Shown piece by piece: positions 3,134 through 62,332 of a DNA stretch of 64,000 nt; positions within the stretch are counted from its first letter, which is position 1; each line of letters begins with the position of its first letter. Source of the DNA: Macrostomum lignano (lineage: Eukaryota); contig NIVC01000831.1 of the NCBI GenBank assembly GCA_002269645.1, forward strand, positions 157,554 through 221,553. Reading direction: 5' to 3'. The notes beneath the pieces are model-generated. The model did not search any database. It saw only the letters and a list, made by a program, of their open reading frames with translations, and was not told the DNA's origin. The position numbers and the translations under genes were made by a program.

Positions 3134-3382
3134 GGAATCTATAGAATGTGACAACAACTACCATATTTTTGTAGTTGTAGCCATAAGAGCAGCTATCTAC
3201 CATAAGCATATCTGTAGTTGCCATTAGGCACCTATTTTACCATATTTGCCATAAGATCCTGTAGCCGTAGTAGCTACAGCAGAACACTAGCTCAAATTAT
3301 TGGTGTATAAATCTTTATTGTCCCTAAAAGATTATATTAACTAAAATTTTATAATTTCTATCCACCACAATAAAACAAACAG

Positions 3383-4006
3383 AAACGCTTCAAAGTGGAA
3401 GAATGCGCGCCAAGCAAGGTGATCCTAATCATGGATTTAAACAATTCAATCTCTGACGCCGACATTGTGGCCCTATTCAGTCGCTATGGCAACGTTGTTG
3501 ATATGCTCCGTTTAAAATCCGGCCGATCGGCTCTATTGGAATTTGACGATGTAAGCGTATCAAAAATGATGGTCTCGCAGTCTAAGGTGAACTCATTCTA
3601 CATCGGCTCCAATCCTGTGAAGATGGCGTTTGGCAATAGTCCTAATATTATTAGGAAGAGCGGCGCTCCAGTCACTTCTCTCAGCATCCTAGGCTATTGG
3701 CCTCATCCCAATGGCCCGGCTGGGCAACAGAATGGCGCTATGATGATGGGCGGCCCACCGCCTCAGCATTCAATGCCGCCTCAGATGATGCAGCAGCAGC
3801 CGCCGCCGCCGCAGCAGCCAGCTCCGGTGCCAGCTGCTCCGAGCCTAGCTATACAAGGCCTGCCAGGTCGCGTACTGCTGTTTAGCATTACCAACGCTAC
3901 CTATCCCATCACTGTTGACGTTATGAAGGCTATCTGTTCTCCTAATGGCAACTTGCTGCGCGTCAGCATTGGACCGAAGAAGGCCGACAATTCCTTGGAA
4001 GCTTTG
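3383..4006 (+). CDS. HNRNPL: hnRNP L-like RNA-binding protein, first visible coding exon (RRM1, Q/P-rich linker, start of RRM2)
   Basis: Acceptor aaacag|AAACGC at 3382/3383 and donor TTG|gtaag at 4006/4007. Translation KRFKVEECAPSKVILIMDL...ALLEFDD...GRVLLFSITNATYPITVDVMKAIC matches hnRNP L RRM1/RRM2. The start-codon exon was not located. Confidence 0.9.
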
Positions 4007-4136
4007 GTAAGCTTAGCCATCCGCATCTTGGATCCCAGATTTAAAGCATGCCAGTTTCACAACCCAAATTAAAGATGCTCTAGCATAACTTCAGTTTTGC
4101 GACCGCTAATCTACAAGCTATCCCAAACACCCTCAG

Positions 4137-4775
4137 GTGGAATTCGAGAACGTGGGAGACGCCAACAAGGCCATCGAGAATCTGAACGGCGCTGATATCT
4201 ACAGCGGCTGCTGCACTCTAAACATCACCGTCAGCCATCTGCCCGTGCTGCAAGTCTATAAAAACGATTCAGAATCGTTCGACTTTACTAATCCAAATTT
4301 GGGCGCGGAGAAAACTCCTTTGTTGGGGTCGGCTCCGCCGCAGCAGCAGGCTCCGCCGCAGCACCCAGCTGCCAGTTACCAGATGCAGCAGCCGCCGCCA
4401 TACCAGCAGCAGCCTCCCCCGTTCGGAGGGCCTCCTGGCATGATGGGGCCGCAGAGTGGCATGCCGCCGCCACCTCAACAGCAACAGCAGCAGCAATTCA
4501 ATCCACAGGACATGTCCTGGATGTTTCAGAAAGGCGAAGGCACAGTTGTGATGGCCTACAATTTGCCGCCTGGCCTGACCTGCCAGAATATTTTCAACAT
4601 CACCTGTTTGTACGGCAATGTGGCCAGGGTGAAGTTTCTCAAGTCTAGAGAAGGCTGCGCCATGGTGCAGATGGGCACGTCTGAACAGAGTGGCTACGTT
4701 GTTGACAACCTGAGCGGTCTGACTATCTATGGTCAGAAGGTGGAAGTCTGTCGCAGCAAGCAGCCGGAGGTTCAG
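4137..4775 (+). CDS. HNRNPL: hnRNP L-like, exon (end of RRM2, Q/P linker, RRM3)
   Basis: cctcag|GTG acceptor and CAG|gtgag donor, both phase 0. Contains the hnRNP L signature LNGADIYSGCCTL and VVMAYNL...NVARVKFLKSREGCAMVQM. Confidence 0.93.
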
Positions 4776-4889
4776 GTGAGATTTTTTACAAAGGTTTAAA
4801 TTAAAAGCAAATTTAATTGACATTGCTGTTTTGTTGATTCAAAAGATTTAGAAGGTACCAGTTTATTAGTCAAGTAAATTGTTAATTAT

Positions 4890-17522: not shown

Positions 17523-18201
17523 GACACGCACTATCTGGCATACACATGCTCACACAGGGTGCACTGTGACTTTCGAATCGTCGAGCTTTCCAAAGGGGTC
17601 GCCCTTCAAAAACCAGAATCGTACGACAAACCACCCGGCAATTTTTTTCTTTCGCGAGACCCCAAGGTAACTAGACTGCACACGTCAGTGACTTCGGCAC
17701 GAGAGTTTGGATATCCTTGATGCATAATTTGACACTGCTACATGTACATGCAGATATAGTAGCGCAGGCTGTGTGGAACACTGTCACCGTCTGAAAGCTG
17801 TATAAACAAGGCTGTTTGCTTCTTAACTCTCGGAGACAAGTTTTAGCTAAACAGTATAAAGAAGTACAGCATGGCCCATGCTGTAGACGCACAGCAATAT
17901 GCACAATAATGTGCACCTTTGACGCTTTCTTCTGCCGTAGCAGCGGTTTTATCTGCTGAATTTCTGTGCGCAAAGTATTCTAATTATAGCTCTGACTCAC
18001 CTGCAGGCGCACTCCTGTTGTTAAGTAAAGCGAAACTGCCCATGAGGTGAACTCGCGACAGGCTACACAGCACCTCGTCTGACCACGCCATTCAATCTTT
18101 ATAAACGGCCCTACTGAAAAGAAGAGAGGCTCGAGAAAAGAAACTCGTCTGCATCTGCCTACACAAAGCTCTTAAAAAGTTATTGGCAGAAAGAAAGAAG
18201 T

Positions 18202-19573
18202 ATGAGCTCACAAGTAGCGTCTCTGGACGAGGTGTCCATAAATTCGATCAACATCGAAGCGGCGTCGATTGAATCGTCACCTGTTGATGCTGAAATCAAC
18301 GAAGCCGTCATTGCGTCCGCCCTTGAGATAATGGACAGTCCGGAGCAGATGGCGGCGCTGTCAGATGAAGATCGACAGCGGGTGTTGGAAATTACTCGCA
18401 ATTACTTCGGAGAACATCGAGACAGCGATGTCTCTGAAACTGAAGAGCGCTCGTCCGCTGGCAGTGAAGCTACCGACGACAACCTCCAGTCTGTGATGCA
18501 GGAAGCGAGCTTGGCGCTGACCATGCGGCTGCTGCACGAGGAGCTGGGCGACGCCATGTTCGCCGACCTGCCCCGCTCGTCGCTTTTCGACATCGTCCAC
18601 TCGATCGGCAAAGTTGCCTGCGCAAACGGAGAGCCCGTAGTGGAACTGCTGGAGTGCAGCTCTGCTGCGAACATCCTGCCGAGACTGCAGGCCTGGCCCG
18701 CCTGCCACCAGCAGCTGCAGGACAGCGCGGCGAGCTCCGAATTTTACAACCTGTTCACCGCGTCGATGCACGAGCTCAGCGAGCGGGCCGGAACCCGGGA
18801 CGAGTCGGAAGGCGAGTACAGGCTGGGCCAGTGCGACATCTGCTGCAGCGAGGACGACAGCCTGCTGTGGCTCGGCGGCTGCTGCCAGACCTCCGTCTGC
18901 GTGTTCTGCCTGCACCGCTGGCTCACTGACCACCTGATGGAGGTGGGCGCGAAGCTCGGCTGCCCGGGCTGCTCAGCCGTGCTGACGGTGCCGCAGCTGC
19001 GCCACCTGCTCAGCGACTCGGCCATGAATCGACGAGAGCAGCTGCTCGCCAGACAACGCGGCGGCAACAGCAGCAGCGAACGAGACTGTCCGAGGTGCAG
19101 CTGTCTGACCCAGCGTCCCAGCAGGCGGATGCGGCTGCGCAACGGCAGGTGGCAGAAGGAGCACGGAGGCGTCACGGTGAAGTGCGCCCAGTGCGACTAC
19201 GTCTGGTGCTTCGACTGTCACTCGCCGGCGCATCCGGGACTCTCGTGCCGCAGGTTCCGGTCGGGAGTGCACCTGCTGGAGGACTGGGCCAAGCAGTTGG
19301 AGCAGTCGGGTCTGAGGAAGGCCCGCCGGTGTCCGAAGTGCAAGGCGATGATTGAGAAAAACGACGGCTGCAATCACATGACGTGCGCGCACTGCGAGCA
19401 CGAGTTCTGCTACCTGTGCAGAAAGCGGTGGCGGATTCCGCAGCTGAAGATCCCCTATTTCCGCTGGAGCGTGTTCGGCTCGCATTCGAATCGGCTGAGC
19501 GTGTTCGGCTGCCGTGAGAAGTTCCTGCCCAACAGGCCGAGACTTCGACGACTCGTTCGAGGCTCCCTTTTCG
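18202..19573 (+). CDS. RNF217: RBR (RING-IBR-RING) E3 ubiquitin ligase, RNF217-like, exon 1
   Basis: RING1 CDICC...CCQTSVCVFC...CPGC, IBR CPRC...CAQCDYVWCFDCHSPAH, RING2 CPKCKAMIEKNDGCNHMTCAHCEHEFCYLC, followed by the RNF217-like LSVFGC...P.RPRLRRLVRGS. Donor TTC G|gtaag at 19573. Confidence 0.9.
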
Positions 19574-19686
19574 GTAAGAGTCGCCGTCCAGAGGACTGCA
19601 ACGATCGTAAAGCAGTGAACGGACGACCATAATAATTATGATTTCATTCTGAATGTTCAGTCAGAACTTGATATTGATTATTTCAG

Positions 19687-51000: not shown

Positions 51001-51351
51001 AGCAATTGATACAGATTCGTTGGGCGCTACTACAAGTAAACGTGAGAATACACGATTGGAGAATATTAAATGAGAAATTGTAGTGAAATTGTAGTCCAAC
51101 GGCCCTTTTGCGGGACCACCTTAAACTGACAACGTCACACGGCCTAGGCAAGCAGGCTCAGGAAAGACGGTAGGGATTTGGGAAGCAAGGGAGGAGCCTT
51201 TTTGGGCGGCCCTATTTGGTATCGGTTTTTCCTCCCTCTCTGTGAGAGTCTATTCCAGACTTGCTAGGTTTAGAATTCCTTAGATCCAAGCAACTTTCAT
51301 CACAATTAAATATACTACAATATAACAATGAATAAGCAATAGGGCTTAAAT

Positions 51352-52050
51352 CAAGGACGACTTAAGTAGAAGGACGGGAAACCTCGTTTCTTAGAAAAGT
51401 TTTGAAGGCACTTTTTCCCGAAAAAAATACACTACGGAGATAGGAAGTTTTCATTTTTTCAGCACAAAAATTGTTATTGCGTTTGATATGAGGCAGATCC
51501 AGCGTTCGTCTTTTGATATGTTGTGCCTTTTTTATTGCTCTATCGATATTGATAAAGCTTTTCGTTCAGAAAATCAGGATTCTATGTTAATTTTTTATTC
51601 TACGTATATTTTCGCGTGTCTTGTGCTTGAAATACATTAGAATGCCACGGCTCGGCTCTTTGGTTTTATGAGTCTATTTTGTCATTCTTACCCGACTGTG
51701 TAGCAAATATTTGTAACAGAGATGATAAAATAGGTTCATAAAACCTAATATTGGAGCTGTGTCATGCATTTTTGTGATTTTTAGATACAGGAAAAATACG
51801 TAGAATAAAAAATTAACATAGAATCCTGATTTTCTGAACGAAAAGCTTTATAAATATCGATAGAGCAATAAAAAAGGCACAACATATCAAAAGATCAACA
51901 CTGGATCTGCCTCCTATCAAACGCAATAATAATTTTTGTGCTGAAAAAATGAAAACTTCCTATCTCCGTAGTGTATTTTTTCGGGAAAAAGTGCCTTCAA
52001 AACTTTTCTAAGAAACGAGGTTTCCCGTCCTTCTACTTAAGTCGTCCTTG
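51352..52050. mobile_element. fold-back MITE with ~260-bp TIRs and 8-bp TSD
   Basis: Ends caaggacgacttaag / cttaagtcgtccttg. Arms are near-identical inverted copies. TSD gcttaaat at 51344-51351 and 52051-52058. Confidence 0.9.
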
Positions 52051-52205
52051 GCTTAAATATGGTTGACTCGTCGATTATTGCTATTCATATTATAGATAGA
52101 TGTAATGTAGGCTATTAAAAGCGATAAAGGTCTGCTGGTTAAATTAATAATCATGAATAATTTCGTTTTAATATATTGCCACATTGCGCGGCATACAGAT
52201 TATAT

Positions 52206-53197
52206 TGTGGCAGGCGGGTTGCCACTGTTTTTTTATTACTTTCTGTTGACAATATTGTAGTGCATGCGCCCTTGTCAGTTGGCAGGGCGCGTTGCACTTT
52301 GGGGCTGGTTGGGGGGTTGGCGGGCGTGGCAGGGTTTGGCCGCCGGCCGGGCTTTGCGCGTGCCCCTCCCCAGCCGTGCCCCTGCCCCGTGCTCAGGGCT
52401 GGTTGGCTGCGGCCGGGCCAGCTTTGGCGCGGGTGCAGCCCCTCCCCCCTTAGGCGGGGTTTTGATTGGCTGGGCCGGCGTGGTTTGTTTTGGTGAGCTT
52501 AGCCGGTGGGGCCGTCTGCCCCAGGGTTTGGGTGCTATTTATGGTGCGACTCTGGCTCTTGCCCACCTCCTGCGTGCTTTTTGTGTTTTGGTGTGCTCCG
52601 AGAGTGCAAGCGCGAGACCTGATAAAAGAAACAGCAACATTAGCTACTTGGATAAAAGAAACAGCAACATTAGCTACTTCGATAAAAGAAACAGCAACAT
52701 TAGCTACTTCGATAAAAGAAACAGCAACATTAGCTACTTGGATAAAAGAAACAGCAACATTAGCTACTTCGATAAAAGAAACAGCAACATTAGCTACTTG
52801 GATAAAAGAAACAGCAACATTAGCTACTTCGATAAAAGAAACAGCAACATTAGCTACTTCGATAAAAGAAACAGCAACATTAGCTACTTCGATAAAAGAA
52901 ACAGCAACATTAGCTACTTGGATAAAAGAAACAGCAACATTAGCTACTTCGATAAAAGAAACAGCAACATTAGCTACTTCGATAAAAGAAACAGCAACAT
53001 TAGCTACTTCGATAAAAGAAACAGCAACATTAGCTACTTGGATAAAAGAAACAGCAACATTAGCTACTTCGATAAAAGAAACAGCAACATTAGCTACTTG
53101 GATAAAAGAAACACAATAGCCTAATCGAGAAGAGTCTTGGAGAATTAAGAAGAAGTCGGAAACTGCGCTTGAGACCTGCGAATAATAAACGGTGAAC
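52206..53197 (+). mobile_element. LTR-like unit (TG...CA) with GC box, ATTGG, TATTTAT, internal 30-bp array and AATAAA
   Basis: Starts tgtggcagg. ggcggggttttgattggc at ~52453-52470, tatttat at ~52536, aataaa at ~53183, ends ggtgaaca. No TSD or second LTR, so boundaries are inferred. Confidence 0.4.
52620..53112. repeat. 30-bp tandem array (gataaaagaaacagcaacattagctactt[g/c]), 16 full copies plus a partial
   Basis: Units are identical except for the last base. Confidence 0.97.
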
Positions 53198-53270
53198 AGT
53201 CATCTGGCCACTGGTAAGCCGCCTGCTGTTTGAGTCCTTTCTTTTCGGGAAGCTTGCTAGGCCGAATTCT

Positions 53271-53512
53271 TGCCAGAGCGTCATAACGCCGGGAGACCAT
53301 ATAGCTTCTGTAGTACGGTACCGTTTACCATATATATTGCGTACGCCCTACGGTATAGAGAATAGAAGCACTCGAGAGTGTCACCACACCTCGAGCCGCA
53401 GCGTGAACTCTGAGTGTCACAACACCAGAGGGATCGAATTATTATCGCAGAGCGTCGCCACGCCTGCTCGTCGTATTCATAAAAGTACAGACAGAGCGTC
53501 ACAACGCCTGTT
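53271..53512 (+). other. array of five conserved bulged-A tetraloop hairpins (consensus core G-A-GYGT-CRYM-ACRC-C)
   Basis: Hairpins at 53273-53293, 53371-53395, 53408-53430, 53447-53467 and 53490-53512 with covarying stems, paired by eye. Function unknown. Confidence 0.7.
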
Positions 53513-54184
53513 ATATCACATATAATATATATTGTACTCGGGACTGGGCACCCAAGCCGACCCGGGTCACAACAATATTTTACTGACAATTAATACGTTC
53601 TACGAAATTATCAAGTACGCCAACCCCGGAAAGTTTTTACAAATTTGCAACCATTTTGATCATAACGCCATTAACCCGTCCGTTGAGCTTATTCGTCCCA
53701 GTTTTGTTCTTGCTTTTTTACCCACTGATGAACTGTTGTCTTCCCACTGTTGATTTTACTAATTTCGCAACTATTACGAGTCAAGTTGTTTTTTTGCCCA
53801 ACTCTTTGTCCATGCCCTTGTCCAGCCCTCTGTCCAATCACCCGTCCCAGCCTGGCCCCGTCTGTTGATAATTTGAGTTTATTTCAATATTTAAAGCATT
53901 AATTGCTTCAAGCGCTGTTGCCGTTTTGTCCCTCCCCTTCCCCTTTTTCCTTGGTTCTCCTTCTGCTTCGTTCACTTTTACCTCCTGCGTTTAGTTATAG
54001 TACATTCGTTCTATTAATTAGTTCCGTTAGTGTTACTTTTGGTGCCGCCTCTAACTTCCATCCTAGCTAACCTTAGCGCACCGCGGCTCTGCTCGCATTC
54101 AATTCGTTCGTCGCCAATAATATTTATCCGCCTGCTTAACTAACTTGCAATGTAATATCTAGCGATCAATAATAATAAACGTCA

Positions 54185-54565
54185 ACCATATTTATTTCAA
54201 TTTATTTAATTAGTTAAGCCCATAGCCTATCTTGAGTTCTTTGCCCACGGGACGTAAAGCAATCCAGTTCTCATCTCAAAGAAAGCTCTGAGACTAATTC
54301 GTTTCGTAATGCAAAAATTACGGTGGTGGCAGCTCTACCCACCCTACTGATAGAAATCAACTCAACAAATCAACGCATTAATTTACGGTACCAAAAATCT
54401 CGGTGTCTACCATTTAAACGACCGTTCAGCTACGATCACGCCTACCCTCCCCCCGGACTTAAGACCCCGGCAGTCGGAGTAAAACAGGAGAAAATTTCGT
54501 TGTGATTCGTCTGCGCGAAACTTCTGGATTTAATCGTGCGAACGCAACGCCGGCGGAAATTCAAA
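54185..54565 (+). repeat. structured non-coding unit, copy 1 (putative LTR U5-PBS-leader)
   Basis: Clearly homologous to 55339-55728. Contains TGGTGGCAGC at 54324-54333. Confidence 0.75.
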
Positions 54566-55338
54566 AGTGATCAAAACTGCCCATCAAAGAAAGTGAACCT
54601 TTTTCTTTTCTCCGTCCCCACCTCAATATACTAGACGGTCTGACGGGCGGCAGCGCAGCTCGCCGTGCTCCCGGCGGCATAATTTTAAACCCTTTAAACG
54701 GCATAATTTTAGCTGCTGTGTTACCGACTAGACGCGGTCATCAAAAGGGTGATACTGATGGCAGGTGGGATGCCACTTTGACTTTGATAACAAATTTAAT
54801 AACTTTGAAATGCATGCGGAAAATTTTCTTTATTTTTTGTCCACTATTTGATTTGTTTCCTCCGTTTGATCCCGCCGAGGACCGTGGAGGTTTTGCATCC
54901 TTTTTTCTGGAAATTTATCCTCCTCCCAACGGACATTTTTGTTAAAATTTTTCTGTTTCCTTCAGTTTTTAGGCCGTCCGTGCCTCGACCACGCGCTGTA
55001 ATTTTTGTCCCGAAGCATATGCCCAACCGTTGATCCAACCGATGTTTTGCCATTTTTCACTAATATTTAAACAGCTCGTCATTGCTAGTGTCTCCATAAA
55101 CGCTCGCTCACTCTCTCTCGAACTTTTCTACGTACGTGTTCTCCCGCACTCGCCTTCTTCGTGCGACCAACACTAGCTAACTTAACGTAACTTGCCTATT
55201 TCATTTAGTTGATTTTTGCGCCTCGGAGCCCGTGAAATCTTCTCAGTCGTGAATTTATTAAAGCAATAGTAATCTTAATGACTTTCAATTTATTTCAAGC
55301 CTGCTGTTTTAATAATAACCAAATATCTAGTAAATTAC

Positions 55339-55728
55339 ACCATATTTATTCGTTGATCAATCAAGCCGTATAGCCTATCTTGAGTCATTTGCCCACGGGG
55401 CGTAAAACAATCAAAGTTCTCAACTCAAAGAGAGCTCTGAGACTTATTCGTTCCATAATACGTAAATTACGGTGGTGGCAGCTCTACCCTACTGATTTTA
55501 ATCAGCTCAACAAATCGACACATTAAATTTACGGTGTCAGAATCTTCGGTATCTACTATCTGAACGACCGTGCCGCTGAGACCGCTCGCCTACGACCGCA
55601 ACTACCCTCCCCCCGGAATTTGAGGACCCCGGCAGTCGGAGTAAAACAGGAGAAATAACTTTGTTGTGATTCGTCTGCGCGACTCTCCGGATTTATTCGT
55701 GCGAACGCAACGCCAGCGGGAATTCAAA
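55339..55728 (+). repeat. structured non-coding unit, copy 2 (putative LTR U5-PBS-leader)
   Basis: Homologous to 54185-54565. TGGTGGCAGC at 55473-55482. Confidence 0.75.
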
Positions 55729-55997
55729 CGTGGAATCCGCCCCACCTCACAGCAATCAATTATCCACGCATTTGTTTCCCCATTGATATTCGCATTGATA
55801 TTCGAATTTTAACAAAAGCAAAATACTAAAAGCAACCCGTAGCATGAAACTTTACACAGAGTAAACTGCAACCGTGAAACGACTATTGGTCAAGTTTCAG
55901 CTCGATATGTAACTTTGGCTCTGAGCAGGAGCGATTTTCGATGTGTTCCATTTAAAATACATGTGATTCCAAAATTCATATTGATATTCGAGTACAG

Positions 55998-56786
55998 GTG
56001 GAGGAGATGGCGCAACGTGACACAGTGGTCATTCTCGGAGACCTGAACGCAGTTCTGCGTAGGTCCGAGCGATCGCTGTTTGTGACAGCGCTCGAGAACG
56101 GCAACACCGGAGCGCTAGAGGACTTCCTGGAGAGACAGGACATGGTGTCGGCCAACACCAGATTCCGCAAGTCACCGGGCAGTCTCGCGACCTTCCTGGG
56201 CTGCAAGCGGAGGCGGCGGAACGCGCGCGGCCGGAACGCTACGCGGAGGCTGGCACAGCTCGACCACGTGCTTGTGCGCTTTCGTGTGCGCCGCCGCGTC
56301 ACCAACTGCCGCACCATTACGCCGCTGGCTCTGCGGTCCGACCATCGGCTGCTCATCTGCGACCTTCGGCTTCGGGACCCAGAGGGCGCGTGGCCTGGTC
56401 CGTCATCAACACTCTGACGGGGCGAAAGCGGCGCATCGCGCTCAACCTGGCAGGCGACATTCCGGATGAGCGCAGGAACGAGCTGCGCGAGTTCTTCGCC
56501 GCCATTGTCAACGCGCTGCCCCCTCCGCTTCCAGAAAATCTGAGGCTGCCGCCGGAGACGCCGTTGCCGGCGGAGGAGAGCTTCAACGTTGCCCCAGTCA
56601 GCACAGCCGACGTTGTGAAGTTCGCTCGGCAGTCGCCGGGCGGCAAAGCGCTTGGTCCGGACGAGCCCACCGAGGCGCTGCGGATCCACTGCGTGGCCAC
56701 TGAGGTCGCCAGAGTGATGAACCGCGTGCTTTCCGGTGAGGTGGCGCCAAACGAATGGACCACGGCGCACATCGTCTCCATTCCCA
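55998..56786 (+). mobile_element. RTE-clade non-LTR retrotransposon fragment (AP endonuclease and start of RT), internally deleted
   Basis: VILGDLNA, NTRFRK, AQLDHVLV, SDHRLL (APE motifs); KALGPD...EWTTAHIVSIP (RT N-terminal region); frame change near 56380. Confidence 0.85.
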
Positions 56787-56797
56787 GTTTCGTCAAG

Positions 56798-57135
56798 CCC
56801 GTACAACAATCCGACGTATCTGACCGACGTCGTACGACGTCTATGTAACATTACGTGTTTCCTATTGGTCGGACGTCGGGCTGACGTCGAAGTCGTAGTC
56901 GAAAAATTAAATTCGCCTTAATTCACGTTATTCGCCTTAAATAATTAAATTAAGCATAACAGTATTGCTTGCCAGTTCATCCCGCGAAAATAAATGTTAA
57001 AGAAGCGCGAAATAAATTTTTGGACTACGACTTCGACGTCGGCCCGACGTCCGACCAATAGGAAACACGTAATGTTACATAGACGTCGTACGACGTCGGT
57101 TCAGAGGTCGGTGCGACGTCGGATTGTTGTACGGG
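56798..57135. mobile_element. MITE with CCC/GGG termini and 3-bp TSD (CMC/EnSpm-like)
   Basis: TIR cccgtacaacaatccgacgt / acgtcggattgttgtacggg, ~120-bp inverted arms, TSD aag at 56795-56797 and 57136-57138. Confidence 0.82.
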
Positions 57136-58010
57136 AAGATCAGTGAATCAGAAGTACCTGTACTCGAATATCAATATGAATTTTGGAATCACATGTATTT
57201 TAAATGGAACACATCGAAAATCGCTCCTGCTCAGAGCCAAAGTTACATATCGAGCTGAAACTTGACCAATAGTCGTTTCACGGTTGCAGTTTACTCTGTG
57301 TAAAGTTTCGTCAAGATCAGTGAAGCAGAAGTACCTGTACTCGAATATTAATATGAATTTTGGAATCACATGTATTAATGGAACACATCGAAAATCGCTC
57401 CCGCTCAGAGCCAAAGTTACATATCGAGCTGAAACTTGACCAATAGTCGTTTCACGGTTGCAGTTTACTCTGTGTAAAGTTTCGTCAAGATCAGTGAAGC
57501 AGAAGTACCTGTACTCGAATATCAATATGAATTTTGGAATCACATGTATTTTAAATGGAACACATCGAAAATCGCTCCTGCTCAGAGCCAAAGTTACATA
57601 TCGAGCTGAAACTTGACCAATAGTCGTTTCACGGTTGCAGTTTACTCTGTGTAAAGTTTCGTCAAGATCAGTGAAGCAGAAGTACCTGTACTCGAATATC
57701 AATATGAATTTTGGAATCACATGTATTTTAAATGGAACACATCGAAAATCGCTCCTGCTCAGAGCCAAAGTTACATATCGAGCTGAAACTTAACCAATAC
57801 TCGTTTCACGGTTGCAGTTTACTCTGTGTAAAGTTTCGTCAAGATCAGTGAAGCAGAAGTACCTGTACTCGAATATCAATATGAATTTTGGAATCACATG
57901 TATTTTAAATGGAACACATCGAAAATCGCTCCTGCTCAGAGCCAAAGTTACATATCGAGCTGAAACTTGACCAATAGTCGTTTCACGGTTGCAGTTTACT
58001 CTGTGTAAAG
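57136..58010. repeat. ~177-bp tandem repeat (5 copies) derived from the MULE subterminal arm
   Basis: Units start at 57136, 57313, 57487, 57664 and 57841. Confidence 0.93.
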
Positions 58011-59300
58011 TTTCATGCTACGGGTTGCTTTTAGTATTTTGCTTTTGTTAAAATTCGAATATCAATGCGAATATCAATGGGGAAACAAATGCGTCAATTA
58101 TCCATCCACCAAAACTTTCTCCACCCCCACCTCAATACCCCCAGCCCCCACTACCACAAAACACATAACGGACGATTATAAGTGACAAACTTACAAGCTA
58201 CATACGAGCTACTTATTCTAGCCATCCCACTCTTGTTGTGAGGTAGCTTCATTTATTTCAGCACTACAAGGTAAGAATCAACCAACTTTCACTTGTGTTT
58301 TTTTGCTACCACTTTTGACAACATGTTAAAAGTGTATTTTTAATTTAATTTAATTTTTAAATGTAATGTAGACTGTAGTTATAGCTTGAACAATAAAAGT
58401 AAAGTAGGTTCTTCATTTTTCAAGTTTAGTTTATTGTAGGCATAGGCCTAATAAACAGTTCTGGCTTTTTTTATAGTATCATTATGTCTTAACTTTATGT
58501 AAAAAAATTGTTTTCAGTGCTAATGTCTAACTTGGTTTGTATTTCTATCTATGTTTCTTTTAATGATAATGATAGATCAAAACTTGATTTTAATTTTATT
58601 ATTCCAAAATTCAATACATTAGTATTCTGCCGCCATGAGTTTTGACCTCCGTAACTAACCATAACCGTAGCCGTAAGAAAGAAGCAACTTCCATAGCTGA
58701 ATTTTGCTGTCATTACGGGCTTAAAAAGTCCATAACCGTAATTTGCCGTAACTGTAGCTGTAATGTATAACAAAAATTGATATTTTTGCATGAAAAGTGG
58801 GGCAGACAGAAAAGGACAGATAAAAAAGATAAAAGGATAACAATAAAACCTACTTGTTGTTTGTTCATGCATTAATATTCATTTATTTTTTTTGTAAATA
58901 TAATATCTTTATCTAAGGTGAAATCCAAAAATCGAGGGCAAGTTTTATGAAAATTCGTTTTTTGGCAATTTGAAAGCAATAAAGCTATAAAATAAATTTA
59001 TTCAAGTTTTTAAAAGGTAAAAAAGTCTAATAAAGCACAAACTATTTTCTATAGCTTTATTTTTAATAAAATGATTTGTTAAAACAATAAGTTTAATTAC
59101 GACCTAATTCACCTAAAATGAGTCTAATGAAAATGATAGAAAAGCTATAGTAATATATTTTATTAACTTTAACTATCTTATAATGTTACACTCTATAATT
59201 CTACAACATAGTTAATATTATTTTCAAGGGTTTATTTGTTTATCACTTACGTTACTCTTGACAACATGTATTTTGTAGAGTTTGTTTGCAATAAATTGTA

Positions 59301-59892
59301 GGCAGTGCTTATCCCCACGGTACCGTAGGAATAATTTCTGTCTTATTCCAACGGTACCGTAGGGATAATTTTCTGCTTATCCGCACGGCACATTGACGAG
59401 ATAGCTGTCCTATCTTCTACATATGCCGTGGGAATAATTTTCTGCTTATCCGCACGGGTGAATTGTTGAAGCAATGCAATAATCTATACAAACAAATTGA
59501 GAATTTACATGTCTAGTAAGAAGTCTACAGAAGCAGCGGCAATGGACTTTTCGGGGATGTCGGGATTAGACTAGTTGCTAAAAGTTCTTAAATTGTAAAC
59601 AATTACTAGAGCAATTCATCTTAAATCATATGTCATAAATACAAAAAAGTGTTTTTTTGCGTAAAAAGGCCATTAAATCTTTACTTCTATCAAAATAATA
59701 GCCAAGCAAAGTTATGTTGTTATATTGCACTCAAGCCGTAAGTACTAAACTAAATTATGAACCCACGGCATATGTAGAAGATAGGCAGCTATCTCGTCAG
59801 TGTGCCATGCGGATAAGCAGAAAATTATCCCCACGGTACCGTTGGAGTAAGACAGAAATTATTCCTATGGTACCGTGGGGATAAGCACTGCC
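59301..59892. mobile_element. MULE-like MITE with 9-bp TSD
   Basis: TIR ggcagtgcttatccccacggtacc / ggtaccgtggggataagcactgcc. TSD taaattgta at 59292-59300 and 59893-59901. Confidence 0.88.
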
Positions 59893-61040
59893 TAAATTGT
59901 ATTCAACATAAGTTTATTATTTAAACATACAAATTCCCATAAGGATTGGAAAATTGCATTTTACTCAGCTTCTACTAAAGCAATTTGGAAAATTCTTTTT
60001 TCCTGCATACACGCTGCGATGATACATGTCTTAGTGTAATTTCATTGTTCTTTGTCGCTTAATGAGCATACAGTAAGCTGTAAGCATCTGATTTGGAAGC
60101 CAGGTAACACATTGGAATTCCTATGAGGATTGGAAAATTGCATTTTACTCAGCTTCTACTAAAGCAATTTTGAAAATTCTTTTTTTCCTACAATACACGC
60201 TGACTTGTTCTAAGAATCATTAGCAGCCTTGCTAATCCTGTTAAGATGGCCAGCAATTTGCTTGCAATAGGCTACCACATCATTGACAATTCGTTGCACT
60301 GGCTCTCCATCGGAAGGAGTTGATGGAATGTTCTTGCGCACAGCATTCTGTAGACGATGAACTACACACCCATGATGTGGGTACTCAAGCAACCTAACTG
60401 CCTTCTGCATCACTGGGGCATTGTCTGTGACAAAGGCAACTACCCGGTCAGTAAGTTGCCAGTCTTCCAGTGCCTATTAGCATTAAAAGGTAAGAAAGAA
60501 AAGAAAAAAAGTAACATAAATTATAAATAAAGTCAATAAAATGTTATTACTTATTTAGTATTAAAACAAGAAAATCAATACTGTATATTGTAAACTGTAA
60601 AAAAGAAAAAATTATTGCAAAAATTTTTAATTTACCTGCTTAATCACAATCTTTATGTTCTCAGCATTTGCAAAGCCACGGATCTCTAGGCAGCAGAGTA
60701 CAACATGGTTAAGCTTGCCATCGTCTTGGATAGTGAAAACAATAAGGCCCAAAATTTCAAAGGCAGCGTTTTCAGCAGTCTAACCATCTGTTGCAATTGC
60801 TACAGTTTTACTGGCAAATAAAATCTGACGTACTGGTTCAGCCACAGATTGGTACAGTTGTGGAATGGCAACATGGGCATGTGGTCAGCAGTTGGGATTT
60901 GGTACCTTTGGAAGCGTTTCTCTAAAAAGCTACCAAAGCCATAGTGTTCAACCATTGCATAGGGCTCCTGGTCAAGAGCAATGACCATTGCCAGGTCATT
61001 AGTCATCTCAATCGCCTTTGGATCAGAATGCACCCATTTA

Positions 61041-62332
61041 CGAGGGGCACTATTAAAGTTCTGAGCCTTAATATGAAAGAGAGGAGATATGGGCAAAGTG
61101 AGATAAGCTTTTCTCAACATAGTCTCCCCCAACCAAGATGCACTTATGGCATCTTGATCGCAGCGCCTCAATGCCACTCTGGAAGAATTGCACCGAGCAG
61201 CCCTCAAACCAAGCAGTTGCAGCATCCTTCAGCGCATCATCAGTGTCAAATCGCTGTCCACGGAGCGCCCGCTTGAGATGTGGAAACAGGTGGAAGTCGC
61301 TCGGGGCCAGGTCTGGTGAATAGGCTGGGTGCGGCAGCTCTCGAAACCCTGCGACACTGACAGCAGCCTTGGCAATCCTGCTAGTGTGGGCCGGTGCATT
61401 GTCGTGCAGCAGCACAACACCTCGGCTCAGCATCCCTCGCCTATTTTCCTTGATTGCCTCGCGCAGACGGGCGATCAGGTCAGCGTAGTAGGCGCCTGTG
61501 ACTGTCTGCTTGTGCGGTAGAAAGTCCAGCAGCAGCGGGCCCTTGGCATCCCAGAAGACGGTGAGCATAATCTTGCCCGCACTGCATGCAGTCCGTGCCT
61601 TCAGTGGTGCAGGTGAACCAACTGGCAGCCACTGCTTGGACTCCTGCTTGGACTCGGGATCGTGGTGATGGATCCACGTCTCATCCCCGGTCACGCAGCA
61701 GGACAGAAAGTTGGCAGGGTCCGGATCGTAGGAGTCCAGGACAAGCTTTGAGTACTGCACCCGTGCGGTCTTTTGGTCTCTTGTCAAGATTCGTGGGATC
61801 CATCTGGCAGAAACCTTGGACAGATAAAGATGCTGGTGCAGGATCTCAATGACTTGCGGGTCAGAGAGTCCAGTGTCTGCCGCAAGTTCCCTGACTTTCA
61901 CCCGCTGGTCACTGTCAACCAGAGCCTGGATGCGCTGGATGTTGTCGGCAGTGACAGCAGTCCGGGGTCGTCCACATCGGGGGTCATCTTCGAGCGAGTC
62001 GCGGCCACGCTTGAACTCGGCTGCCCAGCGCTTTATGGTGGCGTATGAGGGGCAGCGTCAGCGTACACACTAGCCATGCGGCTTTGAATTTCAGCAGGCT
62101 TTGAGCCCTCCAGAGTCAGAAATTTAATCACTGCCCTGTGCTCAAGCTTCAATTCTTGAGAAAATGCCATGGGGTGCTGGAAATAAAATGGTGCAGTGGG
62201 ACTTAGGGAATGCAGAAAATTCTGAAAAGTTGACAATAGGCTATTAACATGTGGCGCTTTTAGAGCCTAAAGTTTCAACACTTTGCCACTATAAGATCTT
62301 GGTCAGGCTCAGAACTTTAATAGTGCCCCTCG
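61041..62332 (-). mobile_element. mariner (D,D34D) transposon, full length, 1292 bp
   Basis: Perfect 28-bp TIR cgaggggcactattaaagttctgagcct with TA TSD on both sides. Motifs VSARWIPR, GDETW, HDNAPAH, YSPDLAPSD. Confidence 0.95.
61068..62170 (-). pseudogene. mariner transposase with one frameshift near 62045-62055
   Basis: ATG at 62170 gives MAFSQELKLEHRAVIKFL...VYADAAP. The frame then changes in a G4 run to YATIKRWAAEFKRGR and stays open to 61068. Confidence 0.88.

What the first reader, a model, noticed from the sequence alone, without database searches (positions are those of the whole stretch)
53271..53512. Array of five covarying bulged-A tetraloop hairpins, resembling phage operator or packaging sites, in a non-coding leader
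Seen in sequence, five hairpins with one fold: ccag-A-gcgt-[cata]-acgc-cggg (53271-53294, one mismatch), ctcgag-A-gtgt-[cacc]-acac-ctcgag (53371-53395), ctctg-A-gtgt-[caca]-acac-cagag (53408-53430), gcag-A-gcgt-[cgcc]-acgc-ctgc (53447-53467) and gacag-A-gcgt-[caca]-acgc-ctgtt (53490-53512). The lower stem differs in sequence in every copy but stays paired. The upper stem shows a compensatory C-G/T-A swap. The bulged A and a C-R-Y-M loop are fixed. Spacers are unrelated in sequence and length (~77, 12, 16, 22 nt), so this is not a satellite. The first spacer is itself structured (gcttct/agaagc, taccgt/acggta). Established: a bulged-A stem-loop repeated as a protein-binding site is the architecture of MS2/PP7-type coat-protein operators, and extrahelical-base ssDNA hairpins are substrates for integron attC recombinases and HUH nucleases. 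Inference: lying just downstream of an LTR-like promoter unit, this may be a multivalent packaging, localisation or recombination signal that lets a non-autonomous element recruit a Gag, capsid or recombinase in trans. I do not recognise it as a described motif.
Basis: partly seen in the sequence, partly recalled or inferred. Interest (0 to 1): 0.82.

Follow-up and report, generated by a model that had tools for sequence, protein, structure and literature searches.

The report
Retrotransposon hairpin array with own regulator
Five bulged hairpins lie in the terminal repeat of a young flatworm retrotransposon and recur at the same place in related elements; they are likely the RNA docking site for a chaperone-domain protein that the element itself encodes, which would let its unspliced genome RNA leave the nucleus much as Rev does for HIV.

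Summary
The five hairpins are real. They lie inside a solo LTR (52256-53574) of a young, autonomous Ty3/Gypsy retrotransposon, probably of the flatworm Macrostomum lignano, between a predicted splice donor and the primer-binding site. They are not a non-autonomous leader.

Full copies carry gag, pol and a third ORF (J-domain, acidic linker, helical domain with a basic loop). ORF3 is predicted to come from a spliced RNA whose intron removes the hairpins. In two related families the start codon arises only at that splice junction. No splice was seen in reads.

Four related families keep 3-5 variant hairpins in the same interval, with compensatory pairs and G·U wobbles favouring plus-strand RNA. 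The bulged A is not fixed. A family without ORF3 lacks the array.

Best reading: a response element bound by ORF3 that licenses unspliced genomic RNA, like Rev/RRE or Cer1's CERV (35%; ORF3 as binder in any role, 55%). Rivals: ORF3-mediated anti-silencing, Gag packaging signal, host factor. Binding is untested. New variant of a known kind; interest 0.68.

The parts
52252..52255 (.). Left target-site duplication (4 bp)
   Evidence: matching 4-bp TSDs in 7 of 7 full copies measured
52256..53574 (+). Solo LTR (TG...CA) of a young Ty3/Gypsy family
   Evidence: homology to other copies starts and stops here; full copies are 7.0-11.1 kb
52464..52469 (+). Reversed CCAAT box, predicted U3
   Evidence: function inferred
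52536..52542 (+). TATA-like box
   Evidence: a TATA-like box lies upstream of the donor in 11 of 12 LTRs listed; start site not mapped
52621..53113 (+). 30-nt tandem array in predicted R / exon 1; 16.4 copies here, 2-18 in other copies
53184..53189 (+). AATAAA, predicted poly(A) signal
   Evidence: cleavage site not mapped
53211..53218 (+). Predicted splice donor; intron would start at 53214
   Evidence: no read evidence
53242..53249 (+). Pyrimidine run plus GG(G) motif that follows the donor in most related LTRs
   Evidence: read by eye
53273..53293 (+). Hairpin 1 (weak lower stem)
53305..53369 (+). Irregular spacer stem between hairpins 1 and 2 (approximate ends)
53371..53395 (+). Hairpin 2
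53408..53430 (+). Hairpin 3
53447..53467 (+). Hairpin 4
53490..53512 (+). Hairpin 5
53535..53571 (+). Terminal stem at the LTR end; in full copies the tRNA-Lys(TTT) primer-binding site follows
53575..53578 (.). Right target-site duplication (4 bp)

Best explanation
The hairpin array is likely an RNA response element bound by the element's own ORF3 protein, which would license the unspliced genomic RNA to escape splicing and leave the nucleus. SHOWN: the array sits in the LTR between a donor-like site and the primer-binding site; it is conserved as a plus-strand structure in four other families; the element encodes an intact J-domain ORF3 after pol. INFERRED, strongly: ORF3 is translated from a spliced RNA (LTR donor to an acceptor abutting its start; 6.6-kb intron in copy L039), so the hairpins, the primer site, gag and pol exist only in unspliced RNA. 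INFERRED, moderately: ORF3 is made first by default splicing, returns to the nucleus and binds the 3-5 hairpins through the arginine-rich loop of its C-terminal helical domain, at the G-C pairs flanking the bulge. INFERRED, weakly: its HPD J-domain recruits Hsp70 to remodel the bound complex, shifting output from spliced ORF3 mRNA to exported genomic RNA. ORF3 as the binder in any role is about 0.55; this export or splice-escape outcome is about 0.35.
For: (1) Position: a descriptor finds 21 hits in 2,932 nt of donor-to-LTR-end sequence against 8 in 69,852 nt elsewhere in 10 related elements, sense strand (B 3, B2 4, C 5, D 4, E 4, J 1, F/G/H/I 0). (2) Structure: 20 hairpins from families A-D are 85.6% paired, with 33 double changes; 0 of 500 shuffles reach the score. 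With no pairing demanded, the second pair was C-G 22, U-G 17, U-A 7, C-A 1 of 47. (3) Selection: between two subfamilies the hairpins are 110/114 identical and the rest of the interval 203/248 (Fisher p 5.5e-5). (4) Splice design: AG lies 0-1 nt before the J-domain start in 13 of 16 element rows. In families I and J the DNA has no ATG there; the donor exon ends in A and TG follows the acceptor in frame. [quoted passage not shown] (6) ORF3 has a basic loop with 5-9 Arg/Lys in 17-23 residues. It is better conserved than its flanks among A, B, D and E, which share the hairpin type, and not against F and G, which do not. It is the least ordered part of a confident model. (7) Precedent: Cer1's CERV, from a spliced mRNA in the env position, is required for genomic RNA export (PMC10309623).
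Against: No binding was tested. No splice joint appeared in 8 of 8 runs laid (contigs only, RNA status guessed). The descriptor was tuned after seeing families A-E, so its enrichment is partly circular, and hairpin copies are related. Family I has ORF3 but 0 hits and J has 1. A covariance model gave only weak hits in E (E about 7-10) and none on the F, G, I or J hairpins. The loss in H is a single event; H keeps a donor-like site, one unrelated hairpin and a 1.0-1.5 kb unexplained spacer. Gag, RT and ORF3 trees are broadly alike, so co-variation cannot separate ORF3 from Gag. Whole-interval folding is not exceptional in most families (z from -2.2 to +0.3). The SIM-like, chromo and TatD modules point to chromatin rather than export. 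No export signal was tested.
Confidence: 0.35

Rival explanations
1. ORF3 binds the hairpins on nascent RNA but acts on transcription or chromatin, like Tat/TAR or the VANC anti-silencing proteins. It stays tethered while the long intron is transcribed and uses Hsp70 to strip silencing complexes from its own family.
For: All hairpin and ORF3 evidence above. A SIM-like motif with an acidic tail occurs in 5 of 10 in-genome ORF3s and 4 of 5 outside homologues. Family E has a chromodomain instead, and I/J add a TatD-like domain. Motifs are arrayed and family-specific, as for VANC targets (PMC5735166, abstract). BIV Tat binds TAR as a beta-turn peptide (PMC9062085, passages).
Against: The hairpins lie well past the predicted start site and inside an intron, not at the 5' end as TAR does (recalled). 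SUMO and histone binding are untested. D, G and C showed no SIM-like match.
Confidence: 0.2
2. The array is the packaging or dimerisation signal read by the element's own Gag; its place in the intron restricts packaging to genomic RNA.
For: It lies in the 5' leader next to the primer site and only on unspliced RNA. Gag has a zinc knuckle. Family-specific variants would give family-specific packaging. Trees do not exclude Gag.
Against: Family H has a Gag sister to G's and intact gag-pol yet no array. The five loops here hold 1 G in 20 positions, whereas zinc knuckles usually read unpaired G (recalled). Packaging signals need not follow the donor (RSV, FIV; PMC5035971, passages), so position alone does not favour Gag.
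Confidence: 0.2
3. A host RNA-binding protein reads the hairpins to tune donor use, suppress the 5' poly(A) site, export the RNA (CTE-like) or control translation.
For: The array starts about 60 nt after the donor and 90 nt after AATAAA. MPMV exports through a host-bound RNA structure (PMC10309623, section 15).
Against: A fixed host ligand would not be expected to drift by family (A or U bulge, 3- or 4-nt loop, different forms in F and G) nor to vanish with ORF3 in H.
Confidence: 0.18
4. The repeats act as double-stranded DNA sites or single-stranded cDNA hairpins (attC/HUH-like), or are neutral relics of local duplication.
For: Each core is a spaced palindrome. In this family all upper pairs are Watson-Crick and 3-4 of 5 also fold on the minus strand. 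Family D's array is a plain tandem duplication.
Against: Lower stems change sequence yet stay paired. U-G 17 against C-A 1 is strand-specific. Hairpins are more conserved than spacers. No recombinase or HUH domain appeared in the three ORFs.
Confidence: 0.07

Closest known systems
Cer1 / CERV of C. elegans (Ty3/Gypsy; PMC10309623)
   Same: [quoted passage not shown]
   Different: CERV has H, M (Cys loop) and G-like domains; ORF3 has J-domain, acidic linker and a helical domain with a basic loop. No direct sequence comparison was run. The sections I read name no RNA target for CERV; here a candidate target exists but function is untested.
Rev/RRE and Rev-like systems of complex retroviruses (PMC5568270)
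   Same: Protein from a spliced RNA, arginine-rich motif, multivalent structured target present only on intron-containing RNA.
   Different: Target is an array of small separate hairpins in the LTR, not one large element in env; J-domain; no export signal or oligomerisation shown; host is a retrotransposon without env.
Tat/TAR, especially BIV (PMC9062085)
   Same: Bulged hairpin in the LTR-derived leader; flexible Arg/Gly-rich loop that could bind as a beta-turn.
   Different: 3-5 copies, downstream of the donor rather than at the 5' end; no cyclin T-binding Cys domain seen.
VANC/VANDAL anti-silencing (PMC5735166)
   Same: Element-encoded accessory protein and family-specific, repeated non-coding motifs.
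   Different: VANDALs are plant DNA transposons with DNA motifs (recalled); here the motif behaves as RNA structure.
MS2 / PP7 coat-protein operators (features recalled)
   Same: Single bulged A below a short capped stem.
   Different: MS2: 2-bp upper stem and ANYA loop; PP7: 6-nt loop. Here 4 bp, C-first 3-4-nt loop, bulge A or U; no coat protein.
M. lignano Ty3/Mdg4 families (PMC12801592)
   Same: Same superfamily and probably the same species.
   Different: That paper's main text has 0 occurrences of DnaJ, hairpin, stem-loop or splic-. The clade was not tested; Gmr1/Osvaldo is a guess from recalled features.

Membership tests
Ty3/Gypsy LTR retrotransposon | Direct LTRs with TG...CA ends and short TSD | tested here: met
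   4-bp TSD in 7 of 7; LTR pairs differ by 0-2 substitutions in 440 nt
Ty3/Gypsy LTR retrotransposon | tRNA primer-binding site and polypurine tract | tested here: met
   site matches host tRNA-Lys(TTT); purine run before the 3' LTR
Ty3/Gypsy LTR retrotransposon | gag (CCHC) then pol in order PR-RT-RH-IN | tested here: met
Gmr1/Osvaldo clade | RT phylogeny with reference elements | not tested
   no reference sequences in hand; one search holds only this group
   25 full-length gag matches at 99% or more; this copy is a solo LTR
Rev/RRE- or CERV-type export system | Regulator encoded by a spliced RNA | tested here: inconclusive
   conserved donor, acceptor and junction-made AUG; no joint in 8 of 8 contig runs
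Rev/RRE- or CERV-type export system | Structured target confined to intron-containing RNA | tested here: inconclusive
   structure and position met; depends on the unproven splice
Rev/RRE- or CERV-type export system | Arginine-rich RNA-binding motif | tested here: inconclusive
   basic loop present; RNA binding not shown
Rev/RRE- or CERV-type export system | Regulator binds target and is required for export | not testable with these tools
   needs binding and knockdown experiments
Tat/TAR-type transactivation | Bulged hairpin at the 5' end of all transcripts (recalled) | tested here: not met
   array lies about 700 nt past the TATA-like box and after the donor; start site unmapped
Retroviral-type packaging signal | Selective Gag/NC binding and packaging | not testable with these tools
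   position fits; absence in family H and G-poor loops weigh against
MS2/PP7 operator | Fixed bulged A with 2-bp stem and ANYA loop, or 6-nt loop (recalled) | tested here: not met
attC / HUH hairpin substrate | Cognate tyrosine recombinase or HUH nuclease | tested here: not met
   none in the three ORFs scanned; rest of genome not searched
Hsp40 J-domain protein (ORF3) | J-domain with HPD motif | tested here: met
   Pfam DnaJ E 7e-18; closest solved chains are cellular DnaJB/DnaJ; HPD degenerate in family G
Any Rfam family | Score at gathering threshold | tested here: not met
   5 weak miRNA matches, none on the array

The most novel reading that the evidence does not exclude
A flatworm Gypsy clade has independently built a complex-retrovirus-style feedback circuit from a captured Hsp40 J-domain. 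A spliced accessory protein reads a family-specific code of bulged hairpins in its own LTR intron through an arginine-rich loop and uses host Hsp70, with SUMO-, chromo- or TatD-type add-ons, to switch the element from spliced to genomic RNA or to undo silencing. It would give a defined cis response element for a retrotransposon accessory protein, which my searches did not find in print.
Probability: 0.3. Interest if true: 0.85.

Novelty: new variant of a known kind. Interest (0 to 1): 0.68.

Why it matters
How Gypsy elements get intron-containing genomic RNA past splicing and nuclear retention is open; CERV is the one precedent I found, and the sections read name no RNA target. Here a candidate protein and a 25-nt candidate target come in several natural, family-matched versions in a transgenic model animal, so specificity can be tested by swapping pairs in vitro. 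A J-domain accessory gene kept intact across about nine families is itself unusual. If binding is family-specific, the pairs would be orthogonal RNA-protein tags like MS2/PP7.

Tried and rejected
Splice evidence: no RNA holder on record; 8 of the 20 holders were laid, all contigs, with no donor-to-acceptor joint. This shows neither presence nor absence. Contig breaks near L039:6955-7000 coincide with short repeats and were not used.

Hairpin conservation therefore rests on one genome.

ORF3 C-terminal domain: no hit by word search; 9 hits by profile among 1.84 billion proteins, 8 inspected and all of this ORF3 type; no Foldseek match at E<=0.001 in PDB or viral libraries; best VIA Z 8.4 (rmsd 2.7, 86 aligned), below the level meaningful for helical bundles; a DnaJ-X look-alike at 0.77 is a lead only.

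Covariance model: weak in E, blank on the F, G, I, J hairpins and in H. Other window hits at 711, 4449 and 54759 are single and near the background rate.

Trees could not separate Gag from ORF3 as partner. The identical basic loop of E and E2 is a recombination, not selection. A short local intron in family H was dropped because its acceptor is not conserved. Rows left out of counts: L099 (no pol nearby, probably a host DnaJ) from the acceptor count; H loci L057, L063, L072, L104 and hybrid-looking L066 (no 3' LTR held) from the ORF3-loss count.

Literature: nine searches ran; none listed this hairpin or a DnaJ ORF in a Gypsy element. The authors' earlier classification (ref. 16 of PMC12801592) was not seen, and that paper's supplements were partly cut, so prior mention is not excluded. 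Earlier scan findings: nothing.

Full report
OBSERVATION. The five hairpins are in the sequence as described. A strict scanner finds 4 of 5 in 470 nt, against at most 1 in 5000 shuffles. Folding favours the plus strand (z -2.55 against -0.88). In the leader of a full copy the upper stems form with probability 0.61-0.85; hairpin 1's stated lower stem is weak. Rfam has nothing on the array.

CONTEXT. The stretch had 268 first-look candidates in the 764-Mb genome; the 40 scored were all 99-100% identical, often in pairs 6-10 kb apart. Homology spans window 52256-53574, with TG...CA ends and a 4-bp TSD, so this is a solo LTR. Of 9 paired loci, 7 had both LTRs complete; all 7 have matching TSDs and 0-2 substitutions in 440 nt between LTRs, so the family is young. 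Full copies have a primer site matching host tRNA-Lys(TTT), gag with a zinc knuckle, pol in Gypsy order, and a third ORF with a DnaJ domain. A near-identical protein is named Macrostomum lignano, so that is the probable host. Its assembly is described as redundant (PMC12801592, first sixth of the text read), so copy counts overstate.

SPLICE DESIGN (inferred). The LTR reads: TATA-like box, variable 30-nt array, AATAAA, donor-like GTAAG at 53214, hairpins, terminal stem, primer site. A GTRAG site was found at this place in 12 of 12 related LTRs, in search windows I chose by eye. An AG lies 0-1 nt before the J-domain start in 13 of 16 element rows and within 16 nt in the other 3; the rows represent about six lineages. 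In families I and J the DNA has no ATG there, but the donor exon ends in A and TG follows the acceptor in frame. The host's spliced leader ends in ATG (PMC8629364, passages) and would put that frame out, so cis-splicing from the LTR fits. The 6.6-kb intron would remove the hairpins, primer site, gag and pol. No joint was seen in 8 contig-only runs, which cannot show absence.

CONSERVATION. Gag searches gave related families at 36-64% identity; labels A-J are mine. Families B-E carry 3-5 hairpins of the form N-G-Y-G-N-[C..]-N-C-R-C in the same interval. The descriptor gives 21 hits in 2,932 nt there against 8 in 69,852 nt elsewhere, and 6 against 10 on the antisense strand; it was tuned on these families. 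Twenty hairpins from A-D show 85.6% pairing and 33 double changes, with 0 of 500 shuffles as high and all slid controls lower; the count of pairs with a double change was not exceptional (39 of 500). With no pairing demanded the second pair was C-G 22, U-G 17, U-A 7, C-A 1, which points to plus-strand RNA; the bulge was A in only 29 of 47. Between subfamilies A and A2 the hairpins are 110/114 identical and the rest 203/248. G has a repeated pair of a different form, F two similar hairpins by eye, J one degenerate copy, I none. A covariance model did not reach F, G, I or J.

ORF3. It is present in A-G, I and J, with intact frames in most, and in a few outside samples. It has an HPD J-domain nearest cellular Hsp40s, a disordered acidic linker with a SIM-like motif in 9 of 15 proteins scanned, a chromodomain in E and a TatD-like domain in I/J. 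The C-terminal five-helix domain models well (pLDDT 87.6) with no informative fold match. Its flexible loop has 5-9 Arg/Lys and is conserved above its flanks among A, B, D and E but not against F or G. Family H, sister to G in the Gag and RT trees, has no ORF3 match in 5 elements with both LTRs and no array, though it keeps a donor-like site and one unrelated hairpin.

MECHANISM. I commit to a response element bound by ORF3 that licenses unspliced RNA (0.35). Default splicing makes ORF3; ORF3 binds the intronic array; Hsp70 recruitment shifts output to genomic RNA. The structure, position, conservation and ORF are shown; the splice is strongly inferred; binding and outcome are untested. Rivals: ORF3-tethered anti-silencing or transactivation (0.20), Gag packaging signal (0.20), host factor (0.18), DNA-level or neutral (0.07). 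The main weaknesses are one loss event, few hairpins in I/J, uninformative trees and evidence from one genome.

COMPARISON. It would work like Cer1's CERV (PMC10309623: abstract, passages, sections 6 and 15 read) and Rev/RRE (PMC5568270, passages), with echoes of BIV Tat/TAR (PMC9062085, passages) and VANC (PMC5735166, abstract). Membership is established only for Ty3/Gypsy and for the J-domain. MS2/PP7 and attC features are recalled and not met. PMC5035971 (passages) shows packaging signals can precede the donor. PMC13524379 (one passage) added nothing. Ten searches listed no description of this motif or of a DnaJ ORF in Gypsy elements. PMC12801592 has none in its main text; its supplements were searched but partly cut, and the authors' earlier classification was not seen.

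VERDICT. Observation confirmed; interpretation partly supported. New variant of a known kind; interest 0.68; novel case probability 0.3, interest 0.85 if true.

Noticed in passing
L043:2427-2459 (also L044, L067): Family D's LTR holds 33 of the 35 nt of the host spliced-leader exon, between AATAAA and the donor; it suggests capture from a trans-spliced RNA.
   Followed up: partly
L050:8179-9162; L086, L087, L089 after pol: ORF3 is modular: chromodomain inserted in family E, TatD-like domain appended in I/J, degenerate HPD in G.
   Followed up: partly
L021:5080-5900 and L022:1250-1880: Two variable tandem arrays inside the element: a 27-nt coding repeat at the gag-pol junction, in the pol frame, and a GC-rich repeat after ORF3.
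   Followed up: no
L114, L115: Two copies have a primer site that runs further into the tRNA T-arm.
   Followed up: partly
L039:6900-7015: Repeated short ATGCGTCA-like motifs between pol and ORF3, with similar ones in L042; possible internal enhancer.
   Followed up: no
L094 vs L050: Recombination inside ORF3, with the breakpoint just before the basic loop.
   Followed up: partly
L058:7700-8790 (oriented) and other H copies: ORF3-less family H has a conserved 1.0-1.5 kb spacer with open frames of 100-250 aa on both strands, unidentified.
   Followed up: no
window 54150-54570 and 55300-55740: Two diverged direct repeats of about 400 nt, 1.15 kb apart.
   Followed up: no
window 51346-52056, 55759-58101, 59290-59903: Foldback or MITE-like inverted repeats; the middle one encloses an endonuclease-like fragment and a 177-nt tandem array.
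   Followed up: no
window 3374-4796, 18118-19629, 61071-62057: RRM-domain exons, an IBR-domain ORF and a Tc1/mariner-type transposase ORF.
   Followed up: no
P0011 and P0019: A Gag homologue and an ORF3 homologue from a metagenome source share a longest-contig length of 7,008, so the clade probably occurs in another sample.
   Followed up: no
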